A stretch of 34,573 nucleotides of DNA from a virus. The position numbers and the translations under genes were made by a program. Below are positions 5,513-34,460 of the stretch, one piece after another; position 1 is the stretch's first letter, and every line of letters begins with the position of its first letter. Under the pieces are notes generated by a model. That model had not been told where the DNA came from. It ran no database searches and saw only the letters and a program-made list of their open reading frames with translations. The stretch spans positions 1 through 34,573 of the IMG/VR virus record IMGVR_UViG_3300045988_140174; one strand, 5' to 3'.

Positions 5513-5562
5513 GCAAGTATCTCCTTTCTATCTTAAATTTTATATAAAACAAAATTATATAT

Positions 5563-5593
5563 AAAAAAAATGGGAGAGGAATTTTCCTCTCCC
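5563..5593 (-). terminator. Rho-independent terminator for the minus-strand fibre gene that ends at 5654.
   Basis: GC-rich inverted repeat GGGAGAGG / CCTCTCCC (5572-5593). On the plus strand it is preceded by an 8-A run (5563-5570), so on the minus strand the hairpin is followed by U8. Confidence 0.7.
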
Positions 5594-5653
5594 AAATTCC
5601 TTCGTTGATTTTTAAAAAAACCACGAATATAATTATTATAGATTGTCCTTAAA

Positions 5654-7297
5654 TTAGAAAGAACCCCAAACCAAATCAGCAGTAACAGTACTACCAGATG
5701 CAGTTAGTTTTAAAGTATCAGATTTTAATACCATCTTTGCATTTTTATCAGATACTAAACTAGTTCCAGCTTGTAAAGTATGTGCTACAGTAACAGTGTT
5801 AGTAGCATCATCACGAGTAGCACTATCTGGACCGGGCTTATATTCTAAAGTCTGGATAGTTTTAGTATTAATACCAGTGATATGACCATTATCATAAGTG
5901 ACAGAATCGATAACATCGAAAGTACCACCATTAGTTAATGATTTGCCATCAGTAGTTGATGTAGTATCATAAGTATCATGCTTGATAGTTACAGATAATT
6001 GATTTGGTGCTGAACCACCATTATCAGTAGAATCAATAACAATGCCATCACCTTCGGTAAAAGCAATTTTACCAACTACTCCACCACCATTACTAGAAGT
6101 AATGGTCATGCTATCGGTTGCACCTGCAGCTTTAAAAATATAAGTAGTATCAATCTATGCATCATCGCCAGAAGGAACATAAGTCCATTCGACATCACCA
6201 ATAGCTAAAACACCATTGGTTTCAGATTTTTTATCTTTGGCAGTTGCAATTAATAAATCGCCAATACCAGCAGTTTTACCAGTAGCATAAGTTAAATTGC
6301 CACCTTGAACTAAGAACATGTCGCCAATATGAATCTCAGCAGCAGTTCCACCCTTTAATACATTGAAACTTGCATCCATAGTAAAGGTAGTGCCACTAGT
6401 GCCAATAGTGCCACGATAAGTCATACCGTCAAGTTTATTAATTAACGCATCGACTTGGTCTTTAGAGTAAACAGGAAGGTCTACTTGTTTAGTATCGCTA
6501 CCAATACCATAATAACTACCATCAACGAAATAACCTAACTTTTGTGTCTTTAAAAGACCAGTAGTTCCAGCAGTATCAGAAGCTCCTACTTGTAATTCAC
6601 CATCATTGTTTAGACCTAAAATAATACCATTTAATTTAGTATCTTTAGATGCAATTTGAATACCATTACTTTTATCAATTTTAGTAACAGTTACATTGTC
6701 GCCGCCTTTGATGTGGACAGTGCTATCATCCTATAATGCGCTACCTAATACTAAATCAATATCATTAGTAGTATTAGCATCCTCTTGAACATTAAGAGTA
6801 TAGGTATCACCAGTAATTGTGAGTGCTTTATTATTAGCCATGGCTACTTGAGCACCCTTAGCTCCAGTAATAGTTACATCAGCTGCGGTAATAGTTTTAC
6901 CAGCATCACTATTAGTACCACCAGTAGTAATCTTAACACCCTTGTCAACTGAAGAAACAACTTGAGTTAGAGCAGTTAAAATAGTATCGTCATCAGGATT
7001 GATTTGCGCCCAAGCAGTACCATTATAATATGCTAAAACATTTTCAGTTACACAATAAGCGATATCGCCTTTAGTAGATACCGTTGTTTTTGCCTTTAAT
7101 GTACTTAAATTATCATAAATTTCAACACTTTTATTTAAAAGAGCCAGTTCATCAGCTTGACCAATATATAAACGACTACTATCAGAAGTTAAATAAAATG
7201 TACCTACTTCCCAGCCCTTTTGAGAATCTTTTAATGTATTTAAACTCGCTTGAGTACCAAGTTTAAATTTTACAGCATTACCAGTATAATCAGCCAT
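5654..7297 (-). CDS. Tail-fibre-like protein, 547 aa, with Thr/Ser/Gly-rich beta-rich shaft. Contains in-frame TAG codons.
   Basis: ATG 7295-7297 with AAAAAGGAG 8 nt upstream; TAA stop 5654-5656. Fragments 6731..7297, 6155..6424 and 5654..6109 share one frame and are separated by cta at 6731 and 6155. N-terminus MADYTGNAVKFKLGTQASLNTL...GTFYLTSDSSRLYIG carries the fibre-anchor motif. Confidence 0.8.
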
Positions 7298-7324
7298 AAT
7301 AAAATCTCCTTTTTATTTTAAAAA

Positions 7325-8263
7325 TTACTCTGAGAGTTCACCCCAAATAATACTCTCATAAACTTTATTAATTTCGTTGACAATATTAGTAGTATCTCCA
7401 GCCGCATAAGCTTTACCGAGGTCATTTAATGAGCCAACAGTAGAATTAAATACCTCAAGCGAAGTATATTCTTCAACAAGTTTCTTTTCAACAGCTTGTA
7501 ACTGAGAAACTTTTGCATATCCAGTTAAATCAGCATTACCAAATGTACCTAATTTTTCTGGTTTTGAGTTGATAAGCATATATTCATCATAAGAATTGTT
7601 ATCATCTCCACTACTATTAGGCACTAAGTAAACAACATTTTCTTTATTATTTTCCGCTGAAGTAATATCTTCTAAGCTGCCGACAGGTTTATAGGTTAAA
7701 TGATTCGCATTAGCGATTTCATTTTTAATAACAGTATTAAAATTATCAACTTGATTTTGTAGATTAACAATTTTAGTACTAATAGTATGAAAATCTTCTT
7801 CGGGCTTTTCCCACTCTAACTTACCAGCAGCTCCTTTTTTCAAATAAGAGCCACTTTCTGCAGTATCAAATCCAATGAGATTTAATTCAGGATTTGACCC
7901 TTCAACAGTTTTAAATTCAAATGTATTAGCATTAACATTAATCTCTAATTGACTAGCTATTAAACTAGCAACATCAGCCAATGATTTACTTTCCCATTTA
8001 CCGCTGTCATTTTTAACTAAAAACGCACCAGCATCAGTTACAGTTTCTAAAACATCACTAATATCAGATAACTTAGTAATATTAGTCTCCGAGCCAGAGC
8101 CACTAATTAATTTATCACCTAAATATAAATATCCATTTTTCTTATCTGCAGATTCATAAATAAAATATAAAGTATTAGGATCTATTAGTTTTCGCGCCTT
8201 TAATGAATTATAAGCAGTTATTGTACCGCGCTAAAACTTTACATAATTAACATTATTTGGCAT
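7325..8263 (-). CDS. Tail-fibre-like protein, 312 aa. Only one in-frame TAG, at 8231.
   Basis: ATG 8261-8263 preceded by GGAAAGGAGATTAAT; TAA stop 7325-7327. Hand translation gives MPNNVNYVKFxRGTITAYNSLKARKLIDPNTLYFIYESADKKNGYLYLGDKLISGSGSE... (x = TAG), continuous with ORF-track fragment 7325..7981. The motif V-K/Q-F-x-R-G-T ... TLYF ... LYLGD resembles the N-terminal anchor domain of prophage tail fibres / HylP-type proteins. Confidence 0.8.
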
Positions 8264-8330
8264 ATTAATCTCCTTTCCTTTAGAATCATTTATAATTATA
8301 AAAGAAATCTTTTCCCTTACTATTGGTATA

Positions 8331-8369
8331 TAAAAAAAGTTGGCCCATAATTAATCCTTATGGGCCAAC
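8331..8369 (-). terminator. Rho-independent terminator between the baseplate block and the fibre genes.
   Basis: Perfect 11-bp inverted repeat GTTGGCCCATA ... TATGGGCCAAC (about 8339-8369). On the plus strand it is preceded by AAAAAAA, which gives a U-run after the hairpin on the minus strand. Coordinates +/-1. Confidence 0.7.
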
Positions 8370-8373
8370 GTTA

Positions 8374-8766
8374 TTTATTCCTAAAAAATCGAAAGAATTT
8401 CTTCTGGTTTATAGTAAGAAATATTAATTACCTACTCACTATCTTCATAATAATTTTCTTTATCACTAGCACTAATTGCAATTTTTTTCCATAGCCCATC
8501 AATATTATGAGCATCTAATAAATACCCACTTTTATCTAATCTATAATATTCAGCATTTGGAATATATTCATCATTCGCTTGAACAACAATATACTATGGA
8601 GATTCAGTTTCATCTAAATAATAAACCATTAATCTCTAATCAGGGGTTAATGAATTAAAAACTGATTTTAATGTTGTAGTATCTTTAATAGAAGTTTCTA
8701 AAACATAATCAGTGCCATCTTTGAAATTATTATATTCAATTTCAGCAGCTTTTTTAGTGCTATAAA
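8374..8766 (-). CDS. About 130-codon coding segment in the +1 frame relative to the upstream 1082-aa gene, with no canonical start codon. Either a frameshift/reinitiation extension of that gene or a small gene with a non-ATG start.
   Basis: The frame is open from a TAA at about 8767 down to a TAA at about 8374, directly abutting the terminator hairpin, and contains 5 in-frame TAG and no TAA/TGA. First ATG is about 45 codons in, with no SD. Its upstream end overlaps the last 4 codons of the 1082-aa gene (...TAT AGG CAC TAA AAA AGC). Coordinates +/-2. Confidence 0.4.
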
Positions 8767-11700
8767 TTACACTAGGCCGATTCTAAATATAGGAAGGTGA
8801 ACCTGGATGATCTTGAGTCCAATTAGCTTGATATTTATCTCTACATTGCTGGAATTCTCTTAATAAACCCCATAGAGAATTTATATCACGATAATATTGT
8901 ACTCCTTCTTCAAAACCAGATGCTTTTTTATATAGTAAATATGCTGTATAATATGTCTTTTTATTATTAAATTTAGTAATATCTCCAGCATATACTTTAT
9001 CACCATTATCATTTTCAATATAATAGGCAGTATCAGGACTGGGGTCATTATCTAAATTTTCAACTTTTTCCCAAATGGGATAATTATCTTGGACAACATA
9101 TAATGGCCCAAAAGCTCCAGTATGTAGAGTTGAAAATGTTTTTTCAGTTTTAATATCCCATTGATTGTTAGGATTTCTTAAACCAAAGTCAATCTCACCA
9201 CGTTTACCATAATACACTACGTCTTTTGCCGGCTCGCCTGTTAAAATATTACCTTTTGAATCTACTATCGGATTACCATTTTGATCATATAAATCTGCCC
9301 AAACATATTCACTTTTTACTGGAATAAAATTATTAATGCTATATGAATCAGTGTATTTACCTAATAAATTTAATAATGCATTATACATACCCCAAATAGT
9401 TTCTTGTGAAGGTATATCATAATAATCATTATCTGTTTCTAATCCTAATAATTTATATAAATAACGAATTAATTCAGAAATAGTTTTAGGATATAGCGTT
9501 GAGTCATTAGGATCTCTATCGTTACCTATAAACAAATAACGCTTTTTATCTGTGGTATTTTTATCTGCTGGGATAAAAATACAATAAGCTTGACGGTATA
9601 GTTTGTCACTTTTACCAACTTGAATATACTATTCTGGATCCATAATATAATATACCTAATTTGAATCAAAATTATTCTAATTGGGTATATATTTATTATC
9701 TTTTTTAATATATAAAATTTCATCAATTTCATCGAAAGCATGCTAATCTAATTCAATTTTTACATAAGTAGTATTAGGATCGGGGTAATATAACTCACCA
9801 TTTAAATACTTTTTATCACTATAATCAACATAAGTATTAGTTTCACCATAATCTTGAGGATTATATATGACCCAAGTACCACGAGGATATACTAAATCCC
9901 ACATTAATGAAGCCATATTACCTAATTCTGGAAGATTAATATCAAATGTACGCTAGTCAATTTGTTTAGCATATTTTAATTCATTATTAACATAGAATCC
10001 TGAATCAGATAATTGAAGAGAAAATGGTTCATCTATGTTTGATAATGTTCCTTCATCAAGTTTATTGTTAATTAATTTATATCCTTTGGTATCCATATGG
10101 ACTGGATATAATTCACCAGAACTAGTTTTCTTTAAATAAATTTCATTTACTCTATCAGGAATATAATGCTATCTACGTTTATTAAATCCTTCAATATTAT
10201 AATGGAAATCTGTATTTGTATTAAATTTCCAATTACGAGGTAAATGTAATTTATAATCTAAATCAGTACTTCTAAAAGTATCTATATGAGGTCCATGATT
10301 ATGATGTACTCTAACTTTTTGAGCATACTATCTTCTCTATTGATTGTATTTTTTCTCATTATAAGAAATATTACCAGCATCATCTGTAATAATATATTCA
10401 TCAATAATAGCTTCTATTAATTTATTATTATCAAAATAATATAATTGCTAAGGGATTTTTACTAATCGTTTAAATAATTCAAATGAAATGTATCCAGGTT
10501 CTTCTAATTTTTTATGATAATATTTTAATGTAATACCATTATTTTCAGTAGCAGAATATTTTGACCCAACAGACAAAGCAGTATAATGAGGCGGGTCATT
10601 TACAATATAATCTGAACTATAATAAATATTACCAAGGGTTTCTAAATACATATCAAGAATTTCTTGACTTGTAATAATTTCAAGTTTTTTACCATTTACA
10701 TCTTTTTCTAATGGTTCATAAATAATTATATCGCTAGTAATTTTTTTATATTCAAATAAGGGACCACGATAAATATCTTTTATAGGTAATGCCTTATATT
10801 CTTCTTTACGAGCTTTTTTTAAATCAGCAATAGCTTGTTTCCAAATTTGAACTTTAGATGCATATTGAGATAACATATCATCTAAATTTGTAATTTTAGT
10901 GTTATAATATTCTTCAGAGACTTTATCTCCTGCATATTGAGCAAGAGCTTTTTCACGAACTAAATTTGCTCTATATTCACTATATCCACCAATTTTATCA
11001 GCATTCGCCTCATGATTAGTGTCAAATGTAAATAAACCTTTATATTCTTCAGAATTATTAATTTTTTCTTCATAATCAATAATTTCTTCTAAATTTTCTT
11101 TTACTGATTCTTCTAATTTTTTTACCTTAGGAGTGCTAGCATTCCATTTATCAACAATATAACTAATATCTAATTCTTTATATTTAGGAATAGTAAGAGC
11201 AGTTTCTCCTTCTCCTATAATTGTTTCGCCGTCTAATTGATAATAACTATTTAATGGAGACAACTAAACACGGCTATTATCTTCATATAAAAAACTAACT
11301 TTTTCATATTCATCATTATCATCAGGAGCGTCTACTATAGCTTCAAATTTAGGAGCTTTAGAATCTAAACTCGCAACCATAATATACTTTTCAGTAATTG
11401 TAGTATTATTACTAACTGAACACCAAATTTTTTGCCATACAGTATGGTCATAATTAGCTTGATAATGTTTTTTATCTATTTCTTTATTTATAGAATATTC
11501 ACAATTTTCATCAATTCCATCAGGTGTTAAATTATTTAATGGGTCTTGAGTAATACTATCTTTTAATAAATAATATCTCTAATTGGAATCATAAAAATCA
11601 GTTTTAGGGTCTACTTTAAAATAGTCTCCATAAGGACGCTATGAAGTAAGTTTTGGGTCCATATCACCAATAGTCTAAATACTACCTTGAATTTTATAAA

Positions 11701-12001
11701 CCCACAACACTGGACAATTAGCCGTAAATTTTTCAACTTCATTGCCCTTTTCGTCATTAGCAGTTTGATGCCACTAAGCTTTTATTTCTGTTGATATATA
11801 AGGACTATATCGACGTTCGCCATAATTAATAAATACATAACGAGTGTTATACACTCCATCGCCATTAATATTCCCAGTAGAGGAGCCATCTGGAGCGCGT
11901 TTAGCTATGGCTTGTTCCATTTCATAACGATTGGTATAAGTTTTATCAAATGTTAAAGCAATTCGTGGATTAACTTTTAAATTACCATAAAATGAACTCA
12001 A
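8753..12001 (-). CDS. Phage minor structural / baseplate protein, about 1082 aa, TTG start. Contains in-frame TAG codons.
   Basis: TTG at 11999-12001 sits 8 nt after AAGGAGG and directly after the TAA of the preceding gene. Fragments 11774..12001, 10448..11263 and 8783..9535 are in one frame and end in cta. I translated 9536-10447 by hand: no TAA/TGA, 8 in-frame TAG (9629, 9656, 9677, 9743, 9953, 10169, 10328, 10337). True TAA stop is 10 codons below 8783. 11264-11773 was not hand-checked. Confidence 0.7.
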
Positions 12002-12359: not shown

Positions 12360-15170
12360 TTATAGCAATCTTGGAGGGGCTTTTGTAGCCACTACAGTCA
12401 TCATACCATTATGATTTAACTAAATGGTAATTTTATTTAAAATATATTCTCCATGTATATCACTTTTATTATCATCAACTGTAATAATTGTATTTGGTTC
12501 TAAATAATAAACAGGGACAGATTTTAAATTTATTTTTTCATTCAAATAAGCATATTGATATAATAAATTATTCAATTCATCATATGTTGTTTTACCCTAA
12601 GATGAAATAACAAATTTATCTTCATACATTTTAGGTAATGGTATATAAGCATATCCATCCTATAATAAATTTTGTTTCTAATATAAGCTATATTTTTCAG
12701 GACTAATATAAATTATATTAGGAGTATCCCTATAAATAATAGATTTAATAGCATCATTATTAACAATTTTCGGCCTATCTCCAATAGCTTTCACAGAGTA
12801 CTTGCCTATCGTACATTCTGAATCTTCTATAAAATCCATCCAAAATTCTAATGTAGAAGGGTCAGTAATATATTTTCTATTCCATCCATAATACTCTTTT
12901 TCATTATCTGGTAATGGCATCTACTCCTCAGGTTTTTGTGGATTCGGCATGCCAACAAAATAATTTTTATAATCAGTTGTTGTAGGATTATATATTTTTC
13001 TCCAATATGCTAATAAATCAGCATAATAACTTTCATAACCAGTACATCCATTTTTAAATTCTGGATTATTTTGAGTTAATTTTACTGCATAATCATCATT
13101 ATGTCCATATTTCTCATAATCTAATGCCATTTGATAAATTAATTCACGCCAATTCTATTTTACATAATACTATGTATTTTTATCTTGGTCTGGCATTACT
13201 GGCTAATACACATAAGCCTTGCCGCCTTTTTGATATAAAGGATCAAACCAACTTGCCCAGGGATGCGTACACATAGAACCATGTCCAGTATATCCTATAC
13301 TACCATCTGACAATAAATCAAAAACATATAATTTTTTATTTTCCCAATCATTCCACTAACCATAACTTGAACTGCAGGAAGTGCCATAAAATTTTTTCAT
13401 TAACTCATCATTATGACATTCACCATAAAGAGAAGCAATATCTATATTTACTCCTCCATTTTTCCCATCATAATAGTCTCCCAGCTCTCTATCAGGATAC
13501 TATCCTAAATATAACTTATAAAGTTCAGCCCAGTCTTTAACATCCCACCATTGTTCATCAAGAGCAGTTCCCTATAAAGTATCTTTTGGATTAGGAGTTT
13601 TTACAAATTCTCCAGTTTTTAGTGGATCATAAGAACGATAAACTCTTCCATCAATTGTAGTATATTTTTTAGGTTTTTCATCAATAGCATATCGTAAATG
13701 AATGGGTACGCCTTCACTATTCGCAGTAGTTGGATTCTTTTTGCCCCAAATCATAAAATTATTTTTTATTTTAGAAAAATCAGGAGTATGCTAAAATGAA
13801 GAAATTAAAACATTATCTGAAAAATTATAAGAACTTTTTGAAGCTAACATTGCAACTTCTGCATAAATCTAATTATAAGTATACTAATTATCATGCTTTT
13901 CATAAATAGAATTTAATTTTTCATCTTCTTCAGGATTAACTGAATCTGTAGTTTTTATCATACTAGTCCAAGACTAATTTACATAAGTCCGCTTTTTCTA
14001 AAAAACAAATTGTCCATCAAGATTATAAAAATATTCATAATCTCCAAAAGTAGAACAAATTTTATCAAGCACTGAAGTGATTGTATCTCCTACATTAACT
14101 ACCAAACCATCTTCATCAGGCCAATATAAATCTACTGCTCGATATCCAGCCGTACCAGTACCACTAATTTTAGAAACATAATATCCTATTTTATCATTAG
14201 GACTATCTTTTACTTTAGTTTTAAAAGTATTTGAACCAATTTCAGTTAATTCACTATCTGTCAATTGATTTAATTGGACTTTTTTCCCAGTAGTAGTATA
14301 TTTTGTTAAAGTTGTATCAAAAGTAATATTGACATAAATACCATTATCATCTAAAAAAGCATAAAAATCACCATCAGTATATCGTAATAATTCTAAACCT
14401 TTATCATCAACATCTTTAATTAAAATATTATGAAAAGGCTCATTTCCATAAAAATGGATCATTTCACGAATAATATATGTGATAGGACGTCTTATTTTTT
14501 TATATTTTTTAATTTCTCCACTAATACTATCTTTAACTTCAACAATACCCAACATTAATTCATTATTTTGCTATTCGGTTAAATATGCTATACCTTCATC
14601 AGTTAAATATTGAGTTTCAGTATTTTTATCAATTCTCCAATGTAAATTTTTTATTAAATTATATTTTACAATTAATTCAGATACATTTAAATTTTCTTCA
14701 TCATATTCAACTAATTCTATTGCAAAATCAATTGGATTAGGAAAATTTCCTCCAATATCACCATTTAATAAACACATTTTATCTTTTCCTGAAATAGCAA
14801 TTTTACATCCAGTAGAAGTAAGTGTTGTATTAAAAGCAGTAATTAAAAACATACCTTGCGGGAACCAAATTAAATCATCATAATCAGAATCAATATTATT
14901 AATTAGGCCAATATAAAGATTAAATTTAGTTGTTAATCCCCAATATACATCAGTAATATTTACTCCTTCAGATACTAATTGTACTGAACAAGAACGACGA
15001 ACAGCGGAGGACCCATCAATATTGATGGATCCTCCAGAAGCTTTGCCTTCAATCGATTCAACAGGTTCTTCATCTTTATTTAAACTTACAATTTTAATAA
15101 AAACTTCTTTCTAGTTGTCTAAATCTAACTATTTCAAAAAATGAGTATCTAACAAAGGATTATTTTTCAT
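12360..15170 (-). CDS. Phage structural / baseplate protein, 936 aa. Contains in-frame TAG codons.
   Basis: ATG 15168-15170 overlaps the TGA of the upstream gene (ATGA); TAA stop 12360-12362. Fragments 14571..14852, 13998..14555, 13572..13754, 12921..13130 and 12678..12920 share one frame and each ends in cta. Full hand translation found no TAA/TGA and about 22 TAG. Confidence 0.75.
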
Positions 15171-18100
15171 TGATACATACCCGCCTCTATCTCTTTAGTA
15201 AACCCTCTATCGAGAGCTAATATAAATTTATTCCAAGCATCTTTTACTGCTTCAATTAATTCACGCATCTATTTATCTTTTGATACAGTATCATTAATAT
15301 CATAATAGTCATAAAATCGTGTTGATAGGAATCCTCTAAAAATAGTAAGATATTTTTCATATTCAATCTAATAATATTCAGCTTTTGTTTTATAATTTTC
15401 TTGTTTATTAGTGTAAATAGTAATTAAAAATTCTGCCTATTCAATCGCGTCTTTATAAGCATTTATATCTTTGTTTAAAACATTTTCAATATACCAATAA
15501 AAAATTCCCATACTTGTAATTGAAGAATAATTTTCATTAGGGTTAGATAATTTAGGTAAATTAGTAAATAATTCAATTAATAATGGATCAATTCTATATT
15601 CATTAAATAATTGAGTATTACACCAATAGCACAATTCTGAAATTTTTGCCAATCCTTTTAACATTAATAAATGCTGATATCTTACTTCATTAATAGTAGG
15701 ATTTGTTTTTGAAATATTTACCTTATATTCTGACAAATTATTTAAAGATTTTATTTTATCCTAAATAAAAATTTTATTGCCTAAAGATTTATAACTTCTT
15801 AATAGAGTGGTATATAATCCATCTAAATTAGAATTATATAACTCTAATACTGATTTTAATGTACCATAATCAGATAATGCATTATCTCCACCAGTATTAT
15901 TAGAAATAAAATTAGAACGTGTTTTATAAGTATAATTTATAATATTATCAATAATATTGCGTTCAGGATGTTTTTTAATATCTTCACTATCACTTTGATT
16001 TTCTTCACTTAAAACAGTAGAAATAAATTTATTATTAGAATATAAATTAAATGTTCCCTATTGTAAATTAGCAAGTTTAGTAGCAGTTAAATATGGTTCA
16101 ATAAAATTATAATTATTATTTTTCTAATCATTCGCTGATACTGCTAATTGATTAAAATAATCAATAAAACTTTTTATTAAATAATCTTTTTCATTCAAAT
16201 AATAATCTACATTTAAATCATAATTATTTAAAGTAGCTTGTTTATAAAAATTATTTTCTAAATAATAATATTTTCCCAGAGTTAAGAAAATATCATTTTT
16301 TTCAATTTTTCCTACTAATTTATAGGTTGAAGTATTTATGCCATTACTAACCAATAGCTATTGATAATTTGTAATAGTAGAATTATAATTAGTTATTATA
16401 GTATTAGCATCTAATAAACGAGAAAATCCAGTATTCATATAATTATTTGTAGCATTTGGAGTAATTAAATCAATAATAGCATCTAAAACATATTTATATC
16501 CATTTTCTTTTACTGGTAAACAGGTATTATCAATAATATATAATAGTTTATTAATTTTAGCTATACGAATATTAGTGGCTTCAAGATTATAAGTATTCTA
16601 ATCAAATTCAATACTATTAAAAATTGAATTATCTCCTTCATCTAAATTATTTCCTTCAATATCTAAAATAATATTACGATTAGAACTAGATCGAATAGTA
16701 CTTTGTATAGAAGACCCTAATTTAGTTATATAAGAATCTGAATATTTACGATTATTCTTCTCATAATAATAGAATGAATATAATAATCGATCTCTAAAAG
16801 CTAAACAATATAAAAGATCTCTTTTTCTATCATTCCACCAACCTGAGAATGTAATAGATTTCTATAAATAATAATTTAACTTAGATGATAAACTAGTACT
16901 ATCATTTATAATTAAATTAGGCCAATTTAATTCTTTTGCTGACTAACAAACATAATCTAATTTATCTGCCGCTAAAATAAATTTAATAATAGAAGAACTG
17001 TCTTCATCTTCCAAGCCATTCTATTCAGTACCGCCTTGTAATTTTAAATTTAAGGCAGTATAATCAGAAGCAATAGTATTTCCTATATCAATTAAACTAG
17101 ATACCTAAAATAAATCCTTTAGAGTATCCATATTGTCTAAATCAATTTTAGTATTTTTTAATTTCTCAATTAAATCAATACAAGCATCAAAAGGATATAA
17201 AAAATTATCATTATCATCAGTGCCAATAAAATTAATAAATGCTTTAGTATCAGAATCTAAATTATCAGTCTATCCTAATAATTTATTTAAATTTCTACGA
17301 GATTGTTTTAAACGTCCATAATACCATAAAATTTCATGTATGCCACCCAAAACTTTTTGATATAATAATTTATCTAAAGCATCATCGTCATCTTGGTCTT
17401 TTATAATAGCTAAATATCCTATTATAGTATCATATAATCCTTGAATAGAAGTCCAAGCATCAATATAATAATTCATTTGAATCCGGCGCGCCTCAGCTTC
17501 AGAAGTATTAGTGCTACCTAACCCTGCTGAAACTCTATTATAATGATTTTTTATATTAGTTAAAATCTCAGTAATATTAATTGAAGATTCAATTTGCTCA
17601 AGATTATCTTTTATTGAATTATAATTAGAAGAAGTAACATTTGTTAATTGATTAGCTATACTCTAATAAATTAAACAATATAACCACAATGCTGCTTTAT
17701 ATCTATAAACAATTGCATTATAACCATCATCAGTAAGAGTTTGACCATTTTTATCAGTGATTTCATAAATTTGATTTAATAAACCACCATAATCATTCGC
17801 AATTGAATTAGCATTTTCAATAGCAGAATTCTAATTATTATAAAGAGATTGTAATAAAGAATCTAATTTATTTAATTTAGAATTAATACCTTCTTTAGTC
17901 GGCTGCTAAATTAAATCTAATAAATCCTATTCTTCTTCATCCTATAATTTTAATTCAGTATACATACCTTTATTTATCTACATTCGCTTAATTGTTTTTA
18001 ATACTTCTTTTTTTATTTCAGCTTTCTTCTCTTCAGTAATATTATTTGACCATAAATCAACAATATTAAAATTCTTTAATGCTGCTGGTTTCATAGTATT

Positions 18101-25474: not shown

Positions 25475-28400
25475 TTAAATAGTCTTTCGACTAGCATATT
25501 GACTTGCTTCATTCTCCATCATTTCAAATGCTTCCATAATTTCATTACTATCAGTCACATTCGGGAAATCAGCATTAATAGAAACTTGTTGCATAAATTC
25601 TTGTGCAATTCTATCAACACCAAGAGAAGAAGGAATAAGATTAGATAAATAACTTACAATAGTCTAAACGTTTAATCCTATATTTTGTAATATAGTAGAA
25701 ATATCTAAACTATCCGTTAAAGCAGTATCAATGTTTAATTCATTATTACTCATCCAATTTTCAATTTGTTTATTCATATCTAATTGATCTAACATATCTA
25801 AATAAGAAAGTTGAGAAATATACTCTGGAACTTCTGCTGTTTTATTAAAACTCTCAGAATTACGCTAAGTACTAATTATATTATTTGCTGTTGCAGTTGA
25901 ACGAGAATCAATAGCATTTTCATATTTACCATAATCAATACTATTCATTCCAGATAAAGCTGCTACCATTTCATTCATAGTTTTTACTAAAGCTTCATTC
26001 CGCTTAATTGCACTATCAATTTTAGAAACATAAATAGATTCCCAATCACTCGCTGCTTTAATAACACCATTAAATGATTCTGTAGCATTTTTAACAATTT
26101 TTTCCATATCTGCTACAGCTTTATCTGATTCACCAGTAATTTTAATTGACCATCCAGAAGCCGTATCAGCAAAACTTCCTTCAATACCTGCTGTACTATT
26201 AATTTCTTTAATTTTATTTAAATAATCATCAAGCAATTTATTAGAATCAGCAACATAATTATCATGGCTTTTCCAAAATGCATTAAACATTTCATCTAAT
26301 GTAGAATATCCTGTTTTTAATGCCAAAGTAGTCTAATTAAAATTTTCAACTAATGCACCAGAACTATCTTTATAATATGTTACAAATTTTTCATTAGCAT
26401 CTTTACTATTTTTAAATACTTCTTCATATTGCTAATGAATCTATTGCATACGTTCATCATAATATTTTTCTAAATCAGCAGCCTATTTCTCGTATTCAGC
26501 TTGAGAAATTTCTCCTTGAGTAAATGATAGCTTTATTGCTGTTAACTTTTCTTGATAGTCAGATTGTAATTGAAGAATATTATTTTCTAATGTTTTTAAA
26601 TATTCTTCATTAGCTTTTTGATAAGCATTTAATTTATCTTCATATTCTTGTTCAGCTTCAGCTATTTTGTCTTCATTAGCACTATATACATATCCCCAAT
26701 TACCATTATTATCACGAGTCAAACGAACAGTTTCATTAGAATTTTGAACATCTTCCAATTTCTATCGTGCTAGCTCTAATTCATATTTAGATTGTAAAAT
26801 CTTTAAATCATATTCACTAATTTTAGAACCATCTTTTAATTTTTTATTTAACTCGTCTTGTAATTTATTTAATGCTTGTTTATGAGGAATAATATCAGTA
26901 TCATCAATAGAACCTTCAATTTGACGTCTTAATTTATTTAATTCATAAGTTTTATCAGCATCACTTAAGTACTAATTATTTAATTCATTGGCCCTAGTAA
27001 TAGCATCTTGCAAAGCTTCAATAGAACCATAAATTGGAGATATACCGTCTTCAAATTCTTTGACAATATTATCCATTTCTTCTTCAAAGATATCGCGTGC
27101 TCTTTCTAAAGCTTCTTGCCAAGTATCTAAGAAATTTTCTTCAGCACTATGGACTTGCTCATCAATTTCTTTTAAACTATCACTCCATTGTTTAATTCCA
27201 ATTGAATCTCCATTAGCAACAGCTTTATCATACTATTCTTGAGCATTAGCACGCATTTCTTTTAATGCCTCTACTTGCTATTTAGCTCCAGCAAGATTAT
27301 TAATACTGTTGTTCATTAATGAACGATTTAAATTACGCAATACTAATTTTGATTGCTCATTTAATTGAGCTCCTAATAATGAAGTAATATCTTTAACACC
27401 TTCAAGAATATTCTAATAATGTTCAAATAAATCAATTTGGTCTTGAACATCCTCACTAAATTGATTAAAACTATCAAGGACTTTTTCTTGAATGGTTGCT
27501 CTCATTTCAAGCAATTCCTAATTGGCTTCTAAAATACTAGAACGCCATTCTCGAATTTGATCAATTTCATCTTCAGTGAAATTCTTAGCTTTTAAATCAT
27601 CAACTGTTAATTTATCAAGTTCTTCAATAGAATTAATGCCATGATTATTTAATAACTCTAGTAAACCGTCAGAATAAGTTTTAGTTTTTTCTAAAGCATT
27701 TTCTGCTTTTTCCCCAATTAAAGCAATAGCCTCAGCAGCAGAATAAGCATCATCTTCAATTTTACTTAATAAATAATCAAGATACTCTAACTCATCATCT
27801 TTAACAGCAATCTTAATTTCAATTTTATACTAAGTCTTTTCAAAAATTATATCAGCTAATTCAGTTTGTAAATCATATAATTTTTCCAATTCATCTTGGC
27901 GTAAATTATTAGTTTCTTCATACTGTTCTAAAGCTTCAATAAAATCATCATAAGCTTCTTCAGCCGCCTCATCAGCATCTTCATTTTTACCAATAGACGA
28001 GTTGTATTTATCAATCTGGCGCTTCATAATTTCATCATAATTAGTAATAACACCAGTTTCATCAAATTCGGCGCCATAAGATGCTATTAAAGCTTTATCT
28101 TCATCCCAATATTTATTAATTTCATCAAGATATTGATTCTATAAATCAATCATTTCATCATATTTTTCAATTTCTTGATCCATTAATTCTAATTTAGAAG
28201 TACCAAACGCCCGCTCTTTAGCTTTGGCTAAATGCTCCATTACTTCTTCTAAATCTTCAATTTTTTGTTTAATTACATGATAACGCTCAATTTCATCTTT
28301 ATATTCTTTTGAAGGAGGAGGGGTATAACTGCTTCCACCACCTCCGCCACTATTGTTAGTGGCAGTGGGATTAGTAGTTAAATCAGTTGTTTTCCCACCA

Positions 28401-31400
28401 TACTCTTTACCCGACCAATCAAGAGTTTTAACTGTTGGCACATTAACCATAGTCGTAGTATCAATAGGAACAACAGATGGAGGATCTAAATGATGTCCAT
28501 GTTCATCAATATTACTAGTATAAACAACTGCTTCTTCGTGTGAAGTAACAGGAGTTGGTTCACTTTCAATTTCTGCATCAAATCCCATACTAGCAACAAA
28601 AGCTTGAGCTTGTTCTGCAGTAAAACCAAAGGCTGAAATCAATGTATTTAAAGAAGCAATTGCTTCAGTTGTATCAAATTTTGGATCAAGCTATAATCCA
28701 TTCGCAGCCTCTTGTATCTAAGTAAAACAAGTATTAATTTCTGACTAAACGCTACTTAAAGAATCTCCAAAAGCTGCTTTTAAATCATCTCTACCACTAT
28801 TAGCTATATTTTGTAAAACTTGATTTACCTATTCCCCAGTTGTATAAAATGAACGCTAAGTTGCAATATTTAATTCCGCTAATGCTTTTTGATTACCTTT
28901 TGCTACATCGGGCATTAATTTAGCAACTTTACGAGCATATCTTTTATCTTCTTTATATAATTTTTCAAATGTATCTTTAGATACTCCAGCTAAATCTGAT
29001 AAAGCGTCAGAATTCTATGCAACAAATTCATCAAAAGCTGCTTCATTTTCTGCATTATATTTTTTAGTAAGACTGGTAGAATCATTCATCCAATCTGAAA
29101 ATGCTTTTACTTTATCATTACATTTATCCCAAGAGCCAGCTAATTCATCAACTAGTTCTTGTCCATGAGTGCCTAATGAGCCCATTTCATCTCGTAATTC
29201 ATTAATCGCTCCAGAATCGCCTTCAACAGCCTGTTGTAATTTTCCAAAATTCTCTGTTAAATTATTAGCATCTCCAGCCCAAGCCTTAAAATCATCTTCA
29301 GACATACCGAACATATCAGCGAATGATTCAGAATTACTCGTCAAAAATTCTTGTAATTTTCCAATTTCAGAGGGTAAAGCACTGCCCTATCCCATATTTT
29401 CTAAAGCAGAAGCTTGTTCCTGAATTTTATCTTTATCAAAATTCTATTCATCCCAAGAAGGCTTTAATCGGCTAGCAGCATCAAAAGCTTTTTGGCTATA
29501 AATTTGCTCATCAAAATAATTATCTTGCTAACTCAATCCCCATTGACGAGACTACTCTGCCGCAAAATTCTTCAATATAGTATCATAATCAAAAGTAACT
29601 TCAGAGTTTTCAACAGTTCCGCCATTTTCATCAGTCAATTTTACTGGTATTGTTGTATTACCGCTAGTAAAATCTTGTAACCAATTATCTCTTAATTCAC
29701 TTACTGAGTATCCTTGCTATGATAATAGATTTAAAATTTCAGATTCAGTTAATTCATTACCACTATTACTACCACGTGATGCAATTATTTTATTTTCATA
29801 ATCTATAACATCTTGACTAATTAATTCTCCAATACCATTTCGATATTTTTCATCATATCTTGATAAATCTAGTCCTCGTGAAAGTAATTCATTTAAAACA
29901 TCATTCTAATAAGAATCAGCTAATCTACTTGTTTCAGCAGTTAATTTTTCTAATGCTTCTCTAGTTTCGTGATTTGAAGTAATTAATTTAGCTGTATTTT
30001 CATCTAAACCTGCTTTATTTATTAAGTCTTCTTTACTAAAATCAAAACTAGAATCTTTCATAGCAGCTTTAACTACTTTATTTATTTCTGATGTTGTTAA
30101 TGTATCAGTCGCATTAACAGTATGATAACGATATTCATTAGGTCTAAACTGATATTTTTCTCGCTTTGTTCCTACAACTATGTTTTCATTTTTCTTTGAA
30201 ATTTCTCTAATTTTTGCTTCCAGCTATACCTATTCATCTCTATTGCTCTAAGAATTAACAGCTGTTTGAGCTTTATTCTATTTATCAAGAGCCTGCTATT
30301 TAATCTTATTCTAACCAGATTCAGTTAAATGCTAAATATTATTAACATCATAATACCAATCTTCACCCTTTTTAAGTTGAGAATCAGCATCTGCCATTTT
30401 ATTATAATTATCAATTAAATCTTGAACTTCATTATTTACATCATATAAAGCTTCTCGCCATTCAGTAGTACCATATTTTAAATCTTTAAAAGCATCATAT
30501 TTACTTGATAAACCATCTAAAGATGAAGTTACTTTCTATACTTCAGAATTAACATTATCTAAATTACTTTGTAGTGTTTGTAAATCTTCATTAGATTGTT
30601 TAAGTTCAGTATTAAAAGATTGAGAACGTTTAACTAATGTATAAATAGCAAATCCAACAGCCGCAATTATTGCAGCAATTAATATAAATTTAGCAATTAA
30701 CGGTAATAAACTTACCTGAACCCCTTTTAAAGCAATATTTAATTCTTGAGTCGCTGCAGTTAATCCTTTAGTTGCTAAAGTATTAGTTATTTTAGCAGCT
30801 GTTTCTTTATTTAAACCTAACTCCATTAAATTAGTCTACAATGCATTTAAAGTTTTCTTTTTTGTTGAATCTGAAATTGTTTCATTATTTATTTTATTAG
30901 CAGTACTTTCTAAATAAGTAGCTGCTGTTTCTTTTAATTTAGCTATTTCTAATCCTTCTGTAATAGCTTTTTCAGTTAAAATGGAAGCATTATGCTAATC
31001 TCTAACCTGTTTTAAAAATTGAATTCCTGTGGCCAAACTGTCAATACCACTTTTAACCATAAAACTAAGACTACCAATAGAAGTAAGAATAGCAACAGCT
31101 TTTTCCCACCCAGACATATCAGGATCTTTAATACTACTGATTAAACTATTAATAGAAGAAATCGCCATTCCCGCCGATTGGGCAAATGAAGCCATTGACA
31201 TAAATGCTTCAATACCACCAACTAAATGTTTAGGTTTAAAGTTTTCAACTTGTTTATTTAACTCTTCTTGTTTTTGCTTAGCTTTTTCTTGAGCTTTTTG
31301 CATTTTTTCAAATGACTAAACAACTTTTTTAATTTCATCGTCTCCTACGCCCATGCCTCTTAAAGAAGCAACTAACTAATCTTGAGATAACTTACTACTT

Positions 31401-33820
31401 TGTATAATCTAAATATATTGACGCATTTTAGCCATACGTTTATCTGTACCAGTCTCATCCCAAGGTATTGATGCAATTTCTTTCTCTAAGCTTTGCAGTA
31501 TTCCTAAATCCTAAATATTTTTAGGTAAATTTTCACGGAATAAATTAAAATAAGTTTCAGCTTTAGTGGTTGCAATATCAAAATTATTTAATTCTGGACT
31601 AAATGTCCCCGCGGCATAAGCCTGCTATGCTGATTCATTAGTTAATTGTGTTAATTTATCTAGCTATGATGTAACTTCAGTCGTCATATCATTAAATAAA
31701 TTAGCCACAGGAGTAGTAGCATCCGCATTCAGCCAAGCCTATAAAAGATTATTTACAAGATTATCATTTAATGTATCGAGTTTATTATAATAAGGCTCTA
31801 TTTCATCATATAAATCTTCATATTTTTTTCCCAAACTAGCTTCTCCTTCATTCCCAGGATTATTATGCTAGCTAGCTGAACTCCAAATATCTTCCATCTA
31901 ATTATTATAAGCTTTTGAGATACCTTTTTTATCGCTTACCATTGTATCTTGAGCATCATTTATGATTTTTGTATAAGTATCAATTTCTTGACCTAATTTG
32001 ATAAGCTAATCTCCCTGCTACTGGATACCCTATTTTTCTGTCTCCCAAAATGATTTCTCAGCTGCCGTCATTCTTTCTGAAGCTATAGCTATTTTATCTT
32101 TCATTTCAGAAACACGTTTAGAATTTAATAAACTCTATTTAGATTCTTCATCTAAATTATCACCTTTTTTAGATAAATAATTAGAAGTCTATTCATTTAT
32201 TTGAGTATGAATTTTAGCATAAGCTTTATCAGCTCCACCAACCAATATTTGAATATTGCTAATAACATTTCGTAAAGCAGGCTCAATTTTTGAAGCTAAA
32301 CTCTATTCAACAATAGCTAATATTCCTATTAGTACTGGTTTAAGGCCTCCTATTTTATCAATAAATGAATCAACACCATCAACAGTATCGGCTAAAAAAT
32401 CAGTTAATTTAATAAAAAACTTATCATCAATTAAATCTTGATATAATCCCTAAAATGAAGCCTTCAAACGCTTATTAGCGGCTTCCCAAGACTCTTCATA
32501 AATTTTCTATTGCTCAGTTAATGTTCCAGTAGCATTACGAGCAGTTTCGAGATTTTCTTTCATGAAATCCCATTTATCCATCAATGCAATTAATTGAGTA
32601 TATTGGCGGACACCAGCAACAGTTTGAGCTAATGCCACTTTAGCATCTTTAGAAATTAATGGATTTCCTTCAGCATCAAATGAATTCCATTTTTCGCCTA
32701 AATCATCAAGGATATCATCCATCTCTCGCAATCCACCATCTGCTGTTTTAATAGAAACACCAACAGCTTCAAGAGCTTGAGAATATTTTCCTAATGTAGT
32801 ACCATCTTCAAGAGTTTTTCCCAATTCTAAATCTTGAATACGAGCAAATAATGTTTTAAATGCAGTACCAACCACATCAGCAGATTGACGAGTTGTAGCT
32901 GTTACAGTTGCTAAAGCAGAAGTAGCATATTCATAACTTAAACCTACTGTATTTGACACAGCCGCGAATTTTTCTAATCCAGCCGCAATTTCATCTGTAC
33001 TAGAAGCAGTAGCAGCACCCAACGCCGTCATAACATCAGCATAATATTCTAATGATTGTGATCCATCATAGAAATTATTCCAAACAGCAGTTAATTGCTA
33101 AGAAATTTTATCGGCGCTTTCACCAGCGGCATTAGCCATTTTAATTGTAACAGCAGTTCTATCTTCTACTTCTTTATCAGATAAACCCTGTTGATAGTAA
33201 ATTAAAGAAGCATCAGTATAATTTAATGTAGAAGTACTTAATGCCTTTGCCGCTTTATTTGCTTTATCAGCAAATTTATCCATATAATCAATATTATGAC
33301 CGGTAACAATTCGAATATCATTTAATGATCTGTTTAAATCCTAAGCATAACCATAAGCCCCTTGTAATGCTCCCATTACACTATGAATCATACTTGAAGA
33401 AATCTACCATTTAACTGTATTTTTAACAGTAGTTAAAAAATCCTATAAACGAGCATTTAAGCTAATCATTGGCTAATCAGCCGCAGCTATGGACTAAGCC
33501 AATTTTACAAATGCTTGCTATCCCGTTACTCCCGCATCTAATAAACTTTTAGATAATTTAGTTACATTTGTCTAAGATCTATTTAAACTTGCATTAAGTT
33601 TACTTAAATCATAATTACCAGTAGTTGTATTATAGGCTTCATTTAAATGAAATGCTAACTATCTGGCTGCTTCAGAAGCTTTTTGCATCTATTCTGGTTT
33701 AAGTCCTAAATCAGTACTATATGAAAGTTTAGTTAATAATTGTTGTAATTCTTGAATAGACTATTTTGCTTGAGTAGTATTTGCAGTAAAATCTAATGCA
33801 ACATTTAATTGTTTTGCCAT
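25475..33820 (-). CDS. Tail tape measure protein (TP901/phage-min-tail family), 2781 aa. Contains in-frame TAG codons.
   Basis: ATG 33818-33820 with AAAGGAG 8 nt upstream; TAA stop 25475-25477. All nine ORF-track fragments from 25865..26326 to 33098..33283 are in one frame and each ends in cta. Hand translation of the whole gene reproduced every fragment peptide and found about 75 TAG and no TAA/TGA. Hallmark TMP segment: ...ATSALATVTATTRQSADVVGTAFKTLFARIQDLELGKTLEDGTTLGKYSQALEAVGVSIKTADGGLREMDDILDDLGEKW... Also extensive coiled-coil sequence, a GGGGGSSYTPPP linker and a hydrophobic helix. Confidence 0.85.
30628..30709 (-). other. Predicted transmembrane/hydrophobic helix inside the TMP (SLLPLIAKFILIAAIIAAVGFAIYTLV).
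   Basis: An uninterrupted hydrophobic run of 27 residues inside fragment 30536..30826, flanked by KG..QV and KRSQS. Position calculated from the ORF-track fragment. Confidence 0.5.
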
Positions 33821-33935: not shown

Positions 33936-34460
33936 TTATCCCAACTTGGTCAAAACATCTTTTAACAATCCTAATGTTTCAGGATTCTGAATATCATTAG
34001 TTAATTGTTCCATATCAAATGTTGTATCTTTATAATCAGTTGAAATAATATCTAAAATACCTGCCGCAGAATTTTTATACTCATAAATTGAATGAATAGT
34101 TTCTGCTACCCAACTTTTAATTTGAGCATATTCTCCTGGATTAATTTCTCCAAATACTTTAGCAGAAAAACCAGAGCCAACTACTAAATCATATAATTTC
34201 TTTGGGTCTTCTTTTTGCTTATCAGTAAAACTTACATTAGTATAAACCATAATCATTTTTAAAATAGTATGAAGATACACACGAGCAGGATTATAATAAC
34301 CATTCTTATCAATAGAATCATTAATAATCTCTGAAATAAGATTTAACTTATCTCCAATAGGAAGATAATCTTTAACTTCAATAATCTAATCTCCCCATTC
34401 AAAAGTTGATACTTCTGTATTTTTATTTAAATTTAACTTTGAAAATGCTACTTTTGCCAT
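33936..34460 (-). CDS. Hypothetical protein, 174 aa, immediately upstream of the TMP. Its position fits a tail-assembly-chaperone-like gene, but the sequence was not recognised. One in-frame TAG.
   Basis: ATG 34458-34460 with AAAGGAGG 8 nt upstream; TAA stop 33936-33938. One in-frame TAG at about 34382. Continuous with ORF-track fragment 33936..34280. N-terminus MAKVAFSKLNLNKNTEVSTFEWGDxIIEVKDYLPIGDKLNLISEIINDSIDKNGYYNPARVY... Confidence 0.75.

What the first reader, a model, noticed from the sequence alone, without database searches (positions are those of the whole stretch)
30224..30334. Cluster of seven in-frame TAG codons within 37 codons of the TMP
In-frame cta triplets at 30224, 30230, 30248, 30278, 30296, 30311 and 30332, all in the TMP frame. 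Minus-strand reading ...TCT GGT TAG AAT AAG ATT AAA TAG CAG GCT CTT GAT AAA TAG AAT AAA GCT CAA ACA GCT GTT AAT TCT TAG AGC AAT AGA GAT GAA TAG GTA TAG CTG GAA.... Seven consecutive suppression events within about 110 nt would act as a strong translational gate if suppressor tRNA is limiting. That matches the proposed role of recoding as a switch on late-gene expression. CAA and CAG are also used nearby, so the clustering is not simply compositional.
Basis: seen in the sequence. Interest (0 to 1): 0.5.

Follow-up and report, generated by a model that had tools for sequence, protein, structure and literature searches.

The report
Amber-coded glutamine patch in tape measure
The seven in-frame TAGs are real, but they are ordinary glutamine codons of a phage that reads TAG as glutamine, crowded because this stretch of the tail tape measure protein is glutamine-rich in all relatives, not because they form a special translational gate.

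Summary
Seven in-frame TAGs lie within 37 codons (30224-30334, minus strand) of a 2781-aa tape measure protein (TMP). The phage clearly reads TAG as Gln (code 15).

The clustering is borderline:
- A synonymous Gln-codon shuffle gives p=0.015, or about 0.05 after correcting for the choice of cluster size.
- A conservation-stratified shuffle gives 0.15.
- Overall inter-TAG spacing matches the null (23 short gaps against 24.9±3.9).

The crowding has a protein-level cause. The stretch 40-100 residues after a conserved GTxEW motif, about 100 aa past the transmembrane segment, is Gln-rich in all TMP relatives. That includes standard-code relatives, which write it with CAA/CAG.

TAG counts in the homologous stretch range from 1 to 9 among relatives. 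Individual TAGs swap with CAA, CAG, AAA, GAG and TGG.

The gate idea is weak. 31 TAGs precede the cluster in the same ORF, the first at codon 20. TAG contexts also favour read-through.

One residue remains. TAG share in the patch is somewhat high across lineages (0.60 against 0.42). Distant phage phAss-1 has 8 TAGs in 18 codons at the same site. A weak TAG-specific preference is therefore not excluded.

Verdict: a known phenomenon of low interest.

The parts
25475..33820 (-). Tape measure protein gene (2781 aa with TAG read as Gln). ATG at 33820-33818 follows AAAGGAG; TAA stop at 25475-25477. It holds 64 in-frame TAG, 100 CAA and 12 CAG.
   Evidence: No TAA or TGA occurs in 2787 codons at 29.5% GC (log10 P about -78).
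30224..30334 (-). The reported cluster: seven TAG (Gln) codons at 30332, 30311, 30296, 30278, 30248, 30230 and 30224, plus CAG at 30293 and CAA at 30266. These are TMP residues 1163-1199.
30173..30352 (-). Conserved Gln-rich patch of the TMP, 40-100 codons after the GTxEW motif. Gln density here is 0.15, against 0.061 in the rest of the protein.
   Evidence: The same patch has Gln density 0.10-0.18 in six standard-code relatives and 0.07-0.18 in eight other recoded representatives.
30458..30472 (-). GTTEW, the core of the conserved YGTxEW(R/K)xAL motif, used as the anchor for comparing TMPs.
   Evidence: G, T, E and W are invariant in 13 lineages.
30626..30736 (-). Hydrophobic (transmembrane-like) segment of the TMP, residues 1029-1065, about 100 residues upstream of the cluster.
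   Evidence: Kyte-Doolittle 19-residue mean up to 2.68. phAss-1 has the equivalent at 917-988.
33936..34460 (-). 174-aa gene immediately upstream of the TMP, in the position of a tail assembly chaperone. It has 1 in-frame TAG.
   Evidence: phrog_30570, unknown function. The role is inferred from position only.

Best explanation
The seven TAGs are ordinary glutamine codons of a code-15 (TAG=Gln) phage. The phage has a very long non-contractile tail and is a distant relative of gut phage phAss-1.

They sit close together for two reasons:
1. This part of the tape measure protein is a glutamine-rich polar segment. It lies 40-100 residues after the conserved GTxEW motif and about 100 residues after the hydrophobic segment. 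The richness is conserved at the protein level across the TMP family, whatever the genetic code.
2. In this phage 36-47% of Gln codons in such poorly conserved regions are TAG. Seven of nine being TAG is at the edge of chance.

On this view the cluster has no function of its own. Any dependence of TMP synthesis on amber suppression comes from all 64 TAGs, starting at codon 20.

Shown here: TMP identity, TAG=Gln, the conserved Gln-rich patch, the lack of TAG conservation, and the marginal statistics.
Inferred: that decoding is by a phage suppressor tRNA(CUA), as in relatives, and that the patch has no translational role.
For: - Recoding: ORFs of at least 150 codons cover 4801 codons under the standard code but 11255 when TAG is read through. 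All lie on the minus strand, and every ORF that ends within the window stops at TAA or TGA, never TAG.
- TAG=Gln: Gln is 6.75-fold enriched opposite TAG in eight aligned TMPs. TAG columns of the cluster align with Gln in standard-code relatives.
- TMP identity.
- Cluster statistics are marginal, and global spacing is random.
- Gln-rich patch: density is 0.10-0.18 in the patch against 0.053-0.069 elsewhere in six standard-code TMPs, with per-protein p from 3e-4 to 0.13. Recoded TMPs show 0.07-0.18 against 0.056-0.077.
- Pooled over seven other recoded lineages, the 60-codon window at this site has the highest Gln-codon count of 71 windows.
- TAG identity is labile. The homologous stretch holds 9, 7, 7, 6, 6, 5, 3 and 1 TAGs in different relatives, and another allele has 3. 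TAG alternates there with CAA, CAG, AAA, GAG, GAA and TGG.
- TAG share is higher in poorly conserved parts of the TMP (0.47 against 0.27, p=0.009), and the cluster lies in the least conserved part.
- 31 TAGs lie upstream of the cluster. In a per-codon read-through model, spacing does not affect yield.
- TAG is preferentially followed by A (44% against about 30%). From my own knowledge (Bossi 1983; Miller and Albertini 1983), this context favours amber suppression.
- No repeat, RNA structure (z=0.45) or promoter or terminator excess overlaps the cluster.
Against: - Within the patch, TAG share of Gln codons is 0.60 against 0.42 in flanks of 200-400 codons, across eight recoded lineages. The CMH test gives p=0.003-0.012, or 0.03-0.07 without the discovery lineage. 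The lineages are not independent.
- phAss-1, about 25% identical here, has 8 TAGs in 18 codons at the homologous site. This is significant under a synonymous shuffle (p about 0.002; locus-wide corrected 0.005).
- One close relative (L093) writes all nine Gln codons of the stretch as TAG.
- An ancestral CAG tract does not explain the excess.
Confidence: 0.8

Rival explanations
1. The TAG-rich patch is a selected translational element. Slow or competitive decoding of a run of amber codons about 100 codons after the hydrophobic segment creates a pause or checkpoint. This could give time for chaperone binding to the emerged hydrophobic segment, or tie TMP completion to suppressor tRNA level.
For: - TAG share is 0.60 in the patch against 0.42 in the flanks across eight recoded lineages.
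- phAss-1 has 8 TAGs in 18 codons at the homologous site, p about 0.002.
- L093 writes 9 of 9 Gln codons as TAG and L097 7 of 8.
- The position relative to the hydrophobic segment is similar in both deep lineages.
Against: - The TAG count in the patch is 1 of 6 in L007, 3 of 7 in L262 and 4 of 10 in L282.
- Contigs whose NrdD is 99% identical to that of phAss-1 carry a different allele with 3 TAGs.
- Single TAGs are freely replaced among close relatives.
- 31 upstream TAGs make it redundant as a gate.
- The +4 A bias suggests selection for efficient decoding.
- The statistics weaken to p=0.03-0.07 without the discovery lineage, and the lineages are related.
Confidence: 0.1
2. Mutational history only. 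TAG codons mark evolutionarily young or labile glutamines, and the patch accumulates them because it evolves fast and exchanges Gln with Glu and Lys. Examples of such origins are AAG or GAG to TAG under A+T-biased mutation, and CAG to TAG.
For: - TAG share is higher in poorly conserved regions.
- Homologous columns show GAG, AAG, AAA and GAA opposite TAG.
- CAG is almost absent from TAG-rich genes but preferred in TAG-free genes.
Against: - Standard-code relatives show no CAG enrichment in the patch (7 of 54 against about 20% elsewhere).
- TAG-CAA differences, which need two changes, are as common as any between 91%-identical TMPs.
- The mutation spectrum was not measured.
Confidence: 0.07
3. 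The TAGs are true stops. The region would then be a pseudogene, or a set of short genes, or a site producing a truncated TMP of about 1160 aa.
For: None beyond the presence of TAG. No suppressor tRNA lies in the window.
Against: - There are 2787 codons without TAA or TGA at 29.5% GC (log10 P about -78).
- Homology to TMPs runs across the TAGs over the whole length.
- TAG aligns with Gln.
- All ten ORFs in the window behave the same way.
- Relatives carry tRNA(CUA).
Confidence: 0.01

Closest known systems
TAG-to-Gln (genetic code 15) recoding in gut phages (Borges et al., bioRxiv 10.1101/2021.08.26.457843; proteomic validation PMC9523058)
   Same: In-frame TAG occurs in structural genes and aligns with Gln. 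The genome is low in GC, and relatives carry suppressor tRNA(CUA). TAG use is uneven between genes.
   Different: That work analysed gene-level TAG preference, which was highest in lysis genes. No role for within-gene clusters was proposed. Here the TMP is not preferentially recoded, and the most abundant virion protein genes of relatives carry almost no TAG.
Phage phAss-1 / proposed Phassvirus group (OQ749652; PMC10607447)
   Same: It is a code-15 Caudoviricetes phage from the human gut. A head protein is 50% identical. Its giant TMP has the same hydrophobic segment, GTxEW motif and Gln-rich patch layout, with an even denser TAG run at the homologous site. It carries tRNA-Sup-CTA genes.
   Different: It is only a distant relative, about 25% identical in the patch region, and no DNA-level similarity was found. 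The window's clade comprises 7 IMG/VR contigs of 100-200 kb and several human-gut metagenome contigs, and has no GenBank representative.
Large Enterococcus phages with a homologous ~2.7-kaa tape measure (EF1, EF5, H1, VRE9 series) and other standard-code relatives in IMG/VR
   Same: The head protein is homologous (41%) and the TMP is a giant of 2.0-2.8 kaa. The standard-code IMG/VR relatives share the GTxEW motif and the Gln-rich patch.
   Different: They use the standard code and write the patch with CAA/CAG. The central TMP region of EF1 itself is not alignable and lacks the motif.
Rare-codon clusters or tandem in-frame stops used as translational pauses or leak-proof gates
   Same: Several codons that depend on one scarce decoder are placed close together.
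   Different: The defining properties are absent or unproven here. Codon identity is not conserved, the excess over a synonymous null is marginal, and the same codon occurs 31 times upstream.

Membership tests
Code-15 (TAG=Gln) recoded phage | Long conserved ORFs interrupted only by TAG, never by TAA or TGA | tested here: met
   ORFs of at least 150 codons cover 4801 codons under the standard code and 11255 with TAG read through. The TMP has 64 TAGs in 2787 codons.
Code-15 (TAG=Gln) recoded phage | TAG positions align with glutamine in homologues, including standard-code ones | tested here: met
   (Gln 6.75-fold enriched opposite TAG). (Gln columns shared with standard-code TMPs).
Code-15 (TAG=Gln) recoded phage | TAG not used as a terminator | tested here: met
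   The nine ORFs that end inside the window stop at TAA (8) or TGA (1).
Code-15 (TAG=Gln) recoded phage | Phage-encoded suppressor tRNA with anticodon CUA | tested here: inconclusive
   None was found in the window, in L001-L007, or within 10 kb either side of the head gene in 60 related loci. It is present in phAss-1 and in the sister clade whose head protein is 75% identical. The rest of the window's genome could not be fetched.
Tail tape measure protein | Match to curated TMP profiles | tested here: met
   Pfam PF10145 at 80.6 bits (cut-off 33.2). Ten PHROG TMP families, best 5.9e-44.
Tail tape measure protein | Gene order: major tail protein, chaperone, TMP, distal tail and baseplate genes | tested here: met
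   In L003 a 367-aa virion structural protein and small ORFs precede the TMP. In the window, large tail proteins follow it (phrog_1887 tail protein in the ORF at 12360-15170).
Selected translational gate or pause made of clustered special codons | Codon identity (TAG rather than CAA/CAG) conserved at the site among relatives | tested here: not met
   There are 1 to 9 TAGs in the homologous stretch. TAG is replaced by CAA, CAG, AAA, GAG and TGG.
Selected translational gate or pause made of clustered special codons | Clustering beyond a synonymous-codon null | tested here: inconclusive
   Window: p about 0.05, or 0.15 stratified. phAss-1 site: p about 0.002. Across lineages p=0.003-0.07 with non-independent lineages.
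Selected translational gate or pause made of clustered special codons | The cluster is the limiting step, not preceded by the same obstacle | tested here: not met
   There are 31 in-frame TAGs upstream, the first at codon 20.
Selected translational gate or pause made of clustered special codons | Measured pause or drop-off dependent on suppressor tRNA level | not testable with these tools
   This needs ribosome profiling or reporters.

The most novel reading that the evidence does not exclude
In code-15 phages of this family, the glutamine-rich patch about 100 codons after the hydrophobic segment of the tape measure protein is preferentially written with TAG. On this reading it acts as a suppression-dependent pause or checkpoint during synthesis of a very long, aggregation-prone protein. 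That would be a codon-level regulatory device that recurs at the same site in lineages as far apart as this phage and phAss-1.
Probability: 0.1. Interest if true: 0.6.

Novelty: already known. Interest (0 to 1): 0.2.

Why it matters
If the gate reading were true, it would be the first case of within-gene placement of recoded stop codons acting as a regulatory device, beyond the known gene-level bias.

The evidence points to something more ordinary. A reassigned stop codon behaves as a normal sense codon, and its local density follows the amino-acid composition of the protein.

Three practical points follow:
- Clusters of in-frame stops in recoded phages should first be tested against the Gln (or Trp) density of homologues, including standard-code ones.
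- Public annotations of these giant TMPs are unreliable. In the copies held here, one is fragmented and another is named a metal-resistance protein.
- This phage clade has no GenBank representative.

Tried and rejected
- DNA-level searches of GenBank phages with the TMP: no match by megablast, and one 184-bp hit by blastn.
- Repeats, tandem repeats, RNA folding (z=0.45) and promoter or terminator scans of the cluster: nothing beyond background.
- Internal duplication as the origin of the TAGs: rejected, since no repeat family covers them.
- Ancestral CAG-tract origin: rejected.
- Search for the suppressor tRNA of the window's own clade:
  - no tRNA in the window, in L001-L007 (TMP loci with up to 10 kb each side), or within 10 kb either side of the head gene in 60 related loci;
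  - the NrdD-synteny search reached only close phAss-1 relatives;
  - tRNA patterns and an array-linked ATPase found the tRNA in the sister clade whose head protein is 75% identical, but not in the 7 closest contigs;
  - The look-up of encoding contigs returned only a 1.2-kb contig.
- Comparison with the Enterococcus phage EF1 TMP: its central region is not alignable and lacks the motif, so it says nothing about the patch.
- Structure prediction was not attempted. Alignments containing locus-derived sequences are not accepted, and the answer would not change the verdict.

Full report
**1. What the window is**

All long ORFs lie on the minus strand. Under the standard code, ORFs of at least 150 codons cover 4801 codons. 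With TAG read through they cover 11255 codons in nine ORFs; reading TGA through changes nothing. At a 60-codon cut-off, ten main ORFs tile the strand. The nine that end inside the window stop at TAA (8) or TGA (1), and most are preceded by AAAGGAG-type Shine-Dalgarno sequences. GC content is about 29%.

The ORF at 25475-33820 (2781 aa) matches ten PHROG tape-measure families (best 5.9e-44). It also matches Pfam PF10145 at 80.6 bits against a cut-off of 33.2. Large tail proteins follow it. So the 'TMP' label is right, and TAG is a sense codon.

**2. The observation**

These are residues Q1163, 1170, 1175, 1181, 1191, 1197 and 1199. One CAG and one CAA lie between them.

**3. Is it more than chance?**

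The TMP has 64 TAG, 100 CAA and 12 CAG. The smallest span holding seven TAGs is 37 codons.

| Null model | p for seven TAGs | corrected over cluster sizes 2-10 |
|---|---|---|
| Uniform placement, TMP | 0.006 | 0.02 |
| Synonymous shuffle among Gln codons, TMP | 0.015 | 0.05 |
| Uniform, all ten ORFs of the window | 0.007 | 0.028 |
| Synonymous, all ten ORFs of the window | 0.014 | 0.050 |
| Synonymous, stratified by local conservation | 0.047 | 0.15 |

The number of short inter-TAG gaps (7 codons or fewer) is 23, against 24.9±3.9 expected. The overall spacing distribution is therefore what random synonymous placement gives.

TAG share of Gln codons is higher in poorly conserved parts of the TMP (0.47 against 0.27; Mann-Whitney p=0.009). 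The cluster lies in the least conserved central part. This is the basis for the stratified shuffle in the table.

Seven close relatives show no excess clustering. Of 47 related loci of about 20 kb or more, 4% reach corrected p<=0.05.

**4. TAG means Gln**

In eight aligned TMPs, Gln is 6.75-fold enriched opposite TAG, and CAA is the commonest partner codon. Several TAG columns of the cluster align with Gln in standard-code relatives.

**5. Relatives**

IMG/VR holds seven contigs (100-200 kb) with TMPs 57-91% identical, and all are TAG-recoded. Human-gut metagenomes add eight loci that carry the same allele of the central segment.

The homologous 37 codons hold these TAG counts:

| Relative | TAG count |
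|---|---|
| L093 | 9 |
| window, L092 | 7 |
| L003/L091, L097/L098 | 6 |
| L094 | 5 |
| L095 | 3 |
| L007/L096 | 1 |
| second allele (L001, L002, L004-L006), different sequence | 3 |

At the seven columns, TAG alternates with CAA, CAG, AAA, GAG, GAA, TGG and others. For example, 30311 is TGG in L003/L091, and Trp also occurs there in standard-code relatives. TAG identity is therefore not under visible constraint.

**6. Why the Gln codons are crowded**

A scan for TAG clusters in related loci flagged the TMP of phage phAss-1 (OQ749652; a 3156-codon read-through ORF with 110 TAGs). It has eight TAGs in 18 codons. BLASTP aligns that site with the window's cluster. In both proteins it lies about 100 residues after the hydrophobic segment and 40-60 residues after a conserved YGTxEW(R/K)xAL motif.

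Using the motif as an anchor, 28 further TMP loci were fetched. They include many that use the standard code, with 0-3 TAGs in about 2000-2800 codons.

- In six standard-code representatives, Gln density 40-100 codons after the motif is 0.10-0.18, against 0.053-0.069 elsewhere. Per-protein p ranges from 3e-4 to 0.13, and the patch is written with CAA/CAG.
- In nine recoded representatives it is 0.07-0.18, against 0.056-0.077.
- Pooled over the seven other recoded lineages, this 60-codon window has the highest Gln-codon count of 71 windows along the protein.

The crowding is therefore a conserved property of the protein, not of the code.

**7. What remains**

Inside the patch, TAG share of Gln codons is 0.60, against 0.42 in flanks of 200-400 codons. 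This is over eight recoded lineages, with Cochran-Mantel-Haenszel p=0.003-0.012. Without the discovery lineage p is 0.03-0.07, and the lineages are related, so these values are optimistic.

The phAss-1 run is significant under a synonymous shuffle (p about 0.002). Against this, three lineages show no excess:
- L007: 1 of 6.
- L262: 3 of 7. Its contig has an NrdD 99% identical to that of phAss-1.
- L282: 4 of 10.

An ancestral CAG tract does not explain the excess. Standard-code relatives have 7 of 54 CAG in the patch, against about 20% elsewhere. I treat this as an unexplained, weak signal.

**8. The gate idea**

- Thirty-one TAGs precede the cluster in the same ORF, the first at codon 20. With per-codon read-through e, the chance of reaching the cluster is e^31 and of finishing is e^64. 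At e=0.95 only 3.7% of ribosomes finish, so decoding must be near-complete late in infection. At e=0.99 the seven TAGs would cost about 7%.
- In this independent-events model spacing is irrelevant. A cluster effect would need local tRNA depletion or ribosome queuing, for which there is no evidence.
- TAG is followed by A in 44% of 815 cases, against about 30% for CAG, CAA and other NAG codons. From my own knowledge of classical amber-suppression context effects, this favours suppression.
- The TMP's TAG share (0.36) is below that of the five genes downstream (0.38-0.56).
- In the nearest relative, the genes in the positions of scaffold, head proteins and the probable major tail protein have 0-1 TAG. 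The head and tail genes among them prefer CAG. TAG use therefore does not simply mark 'late' genes.

**9. Suppressor tRNA**

No tRNA was found in the window, in L001-L007, or within 10 kb either side of the head gene in 60 related loci. tRNA(CUA) genes are present in phAss-1. They also occur in tRNA arrays of the sister clade whose head protein is 75% identical. For the window's own clade this remains open.

**10. Other checks**

No repeats, tandem repeats, stable RNA structure (z=0.45), or excess of promoter-like or terminator-like sites overlap the cluster.

**11. Comparison with the literature**

Code-15 recoding in gut phages, its enrichment in structural and lysis genes, and the 'late switch' hypothesis are published (10.1101/2021.08.26.457843, sections read; PMC9523058). 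phAss-1 and its three annotated suppressor tRNAs are described in PMC10607447. I found no statement in these papers about within-gene clusters of recoded codons.

**Verdict**

The cluster is a code-15 spelling of a conserved Gln-rich segment of the tape measure protein. A weak site-specific preference for TAG cannot be excluded, and I put its probability at about 0.1.

Noticed in passing
L003 1-10000 (flank of the closest relative); window 1-8350 against 8375-33838: In L003, the genes in the positions of scaffold, two head proteins and the probable major tail protein have 0-1 TAG. The head and tail genes among these prefer CAG (6-10 CAG against 2-4 CAA), while neighbouring low-copy genes have 8 or more TAGs and almost no CAG. 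In the window, the three distal ORFs (1-8350) have a TAG share of 0.11-0.18, against 0.36-0.56 upstream (chi-square across genes p=0.006).
   Followed up: partly
All in-frame TAGs of the window and of L001, L002, L004, L007: The base after TAG is A in 44% of 815 cases. This compares with 29% after CAG, 28% after CAA and 31% after other NAG codons (chi-square p=5e-8). It is a context bias consistent with selection for efficient amber read-through.
   Followed up: partly
Window 29300-31100 (TMP codons about 900-1500): The central third of the TMP is mosaic. The window, L003 and L007 share one allele, while L001, L002 and L004-L006 carry a different one (10-40% identity here against 55-64% overall).
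   Followed up: partly
L099 5246-14713 (phAss-1, OQ749652): In the record held here, the phAss-1 TMP is a single 3156-codon TAG-read-through ORF (110 TAGs) but is annotated as many short hypothetical proteins. It has a second TAG run at codons 1621-1645 with i+4 spacing (qKSGqGFDqLKqqVDDq).
   Followed up: partly
L254 28795-36822 (Enterococcus phage EF1, MF001358): The 2675-aa tape measure homologue is annotated as 'cobalt-zinc-cadmium resistance protein CzcA', which is a misannotation.
   Followed up: no
L138 7726-7805 (IMGVR_UViG_3300045988_110853): The tRNA array of a TAG-recoded relative holds tRNA(CTA) and also a tRNA with anticodon TCA, which ARAGORN calls 'SeC'. It may be an opal suppressor.
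   Followed up: no
Window 30311-30313: The TAG here is TGG (Trp) in L003 and L091. Two standard-code relatives (L276, L278) also have Trp at this column, so Gln and Trp alternate naturally at this site.
   Followed up: yes
Window 30660-30676 (minus strand) and 30769-30801 (plus strand): Two terminator-like hairpins lie inside the TMP gene (2 found against 0.3 expected in 1.5 kb), one of them within the stretch coding for the hydrophobic segment. They are probably a by-product of the sequence that encodes the hydrophobic segment.
   Followed up: no
Window 12360-12397 and 15167-15194: Neighbouring tail ORFs overlap in their stop-to-stop frames by 38 and 28 nt. ORF 8375-12001 follows the stop of the preceding gene directly and probably starts at a non-ATG codon. 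Start sites are not resolved.
   Followed up: no
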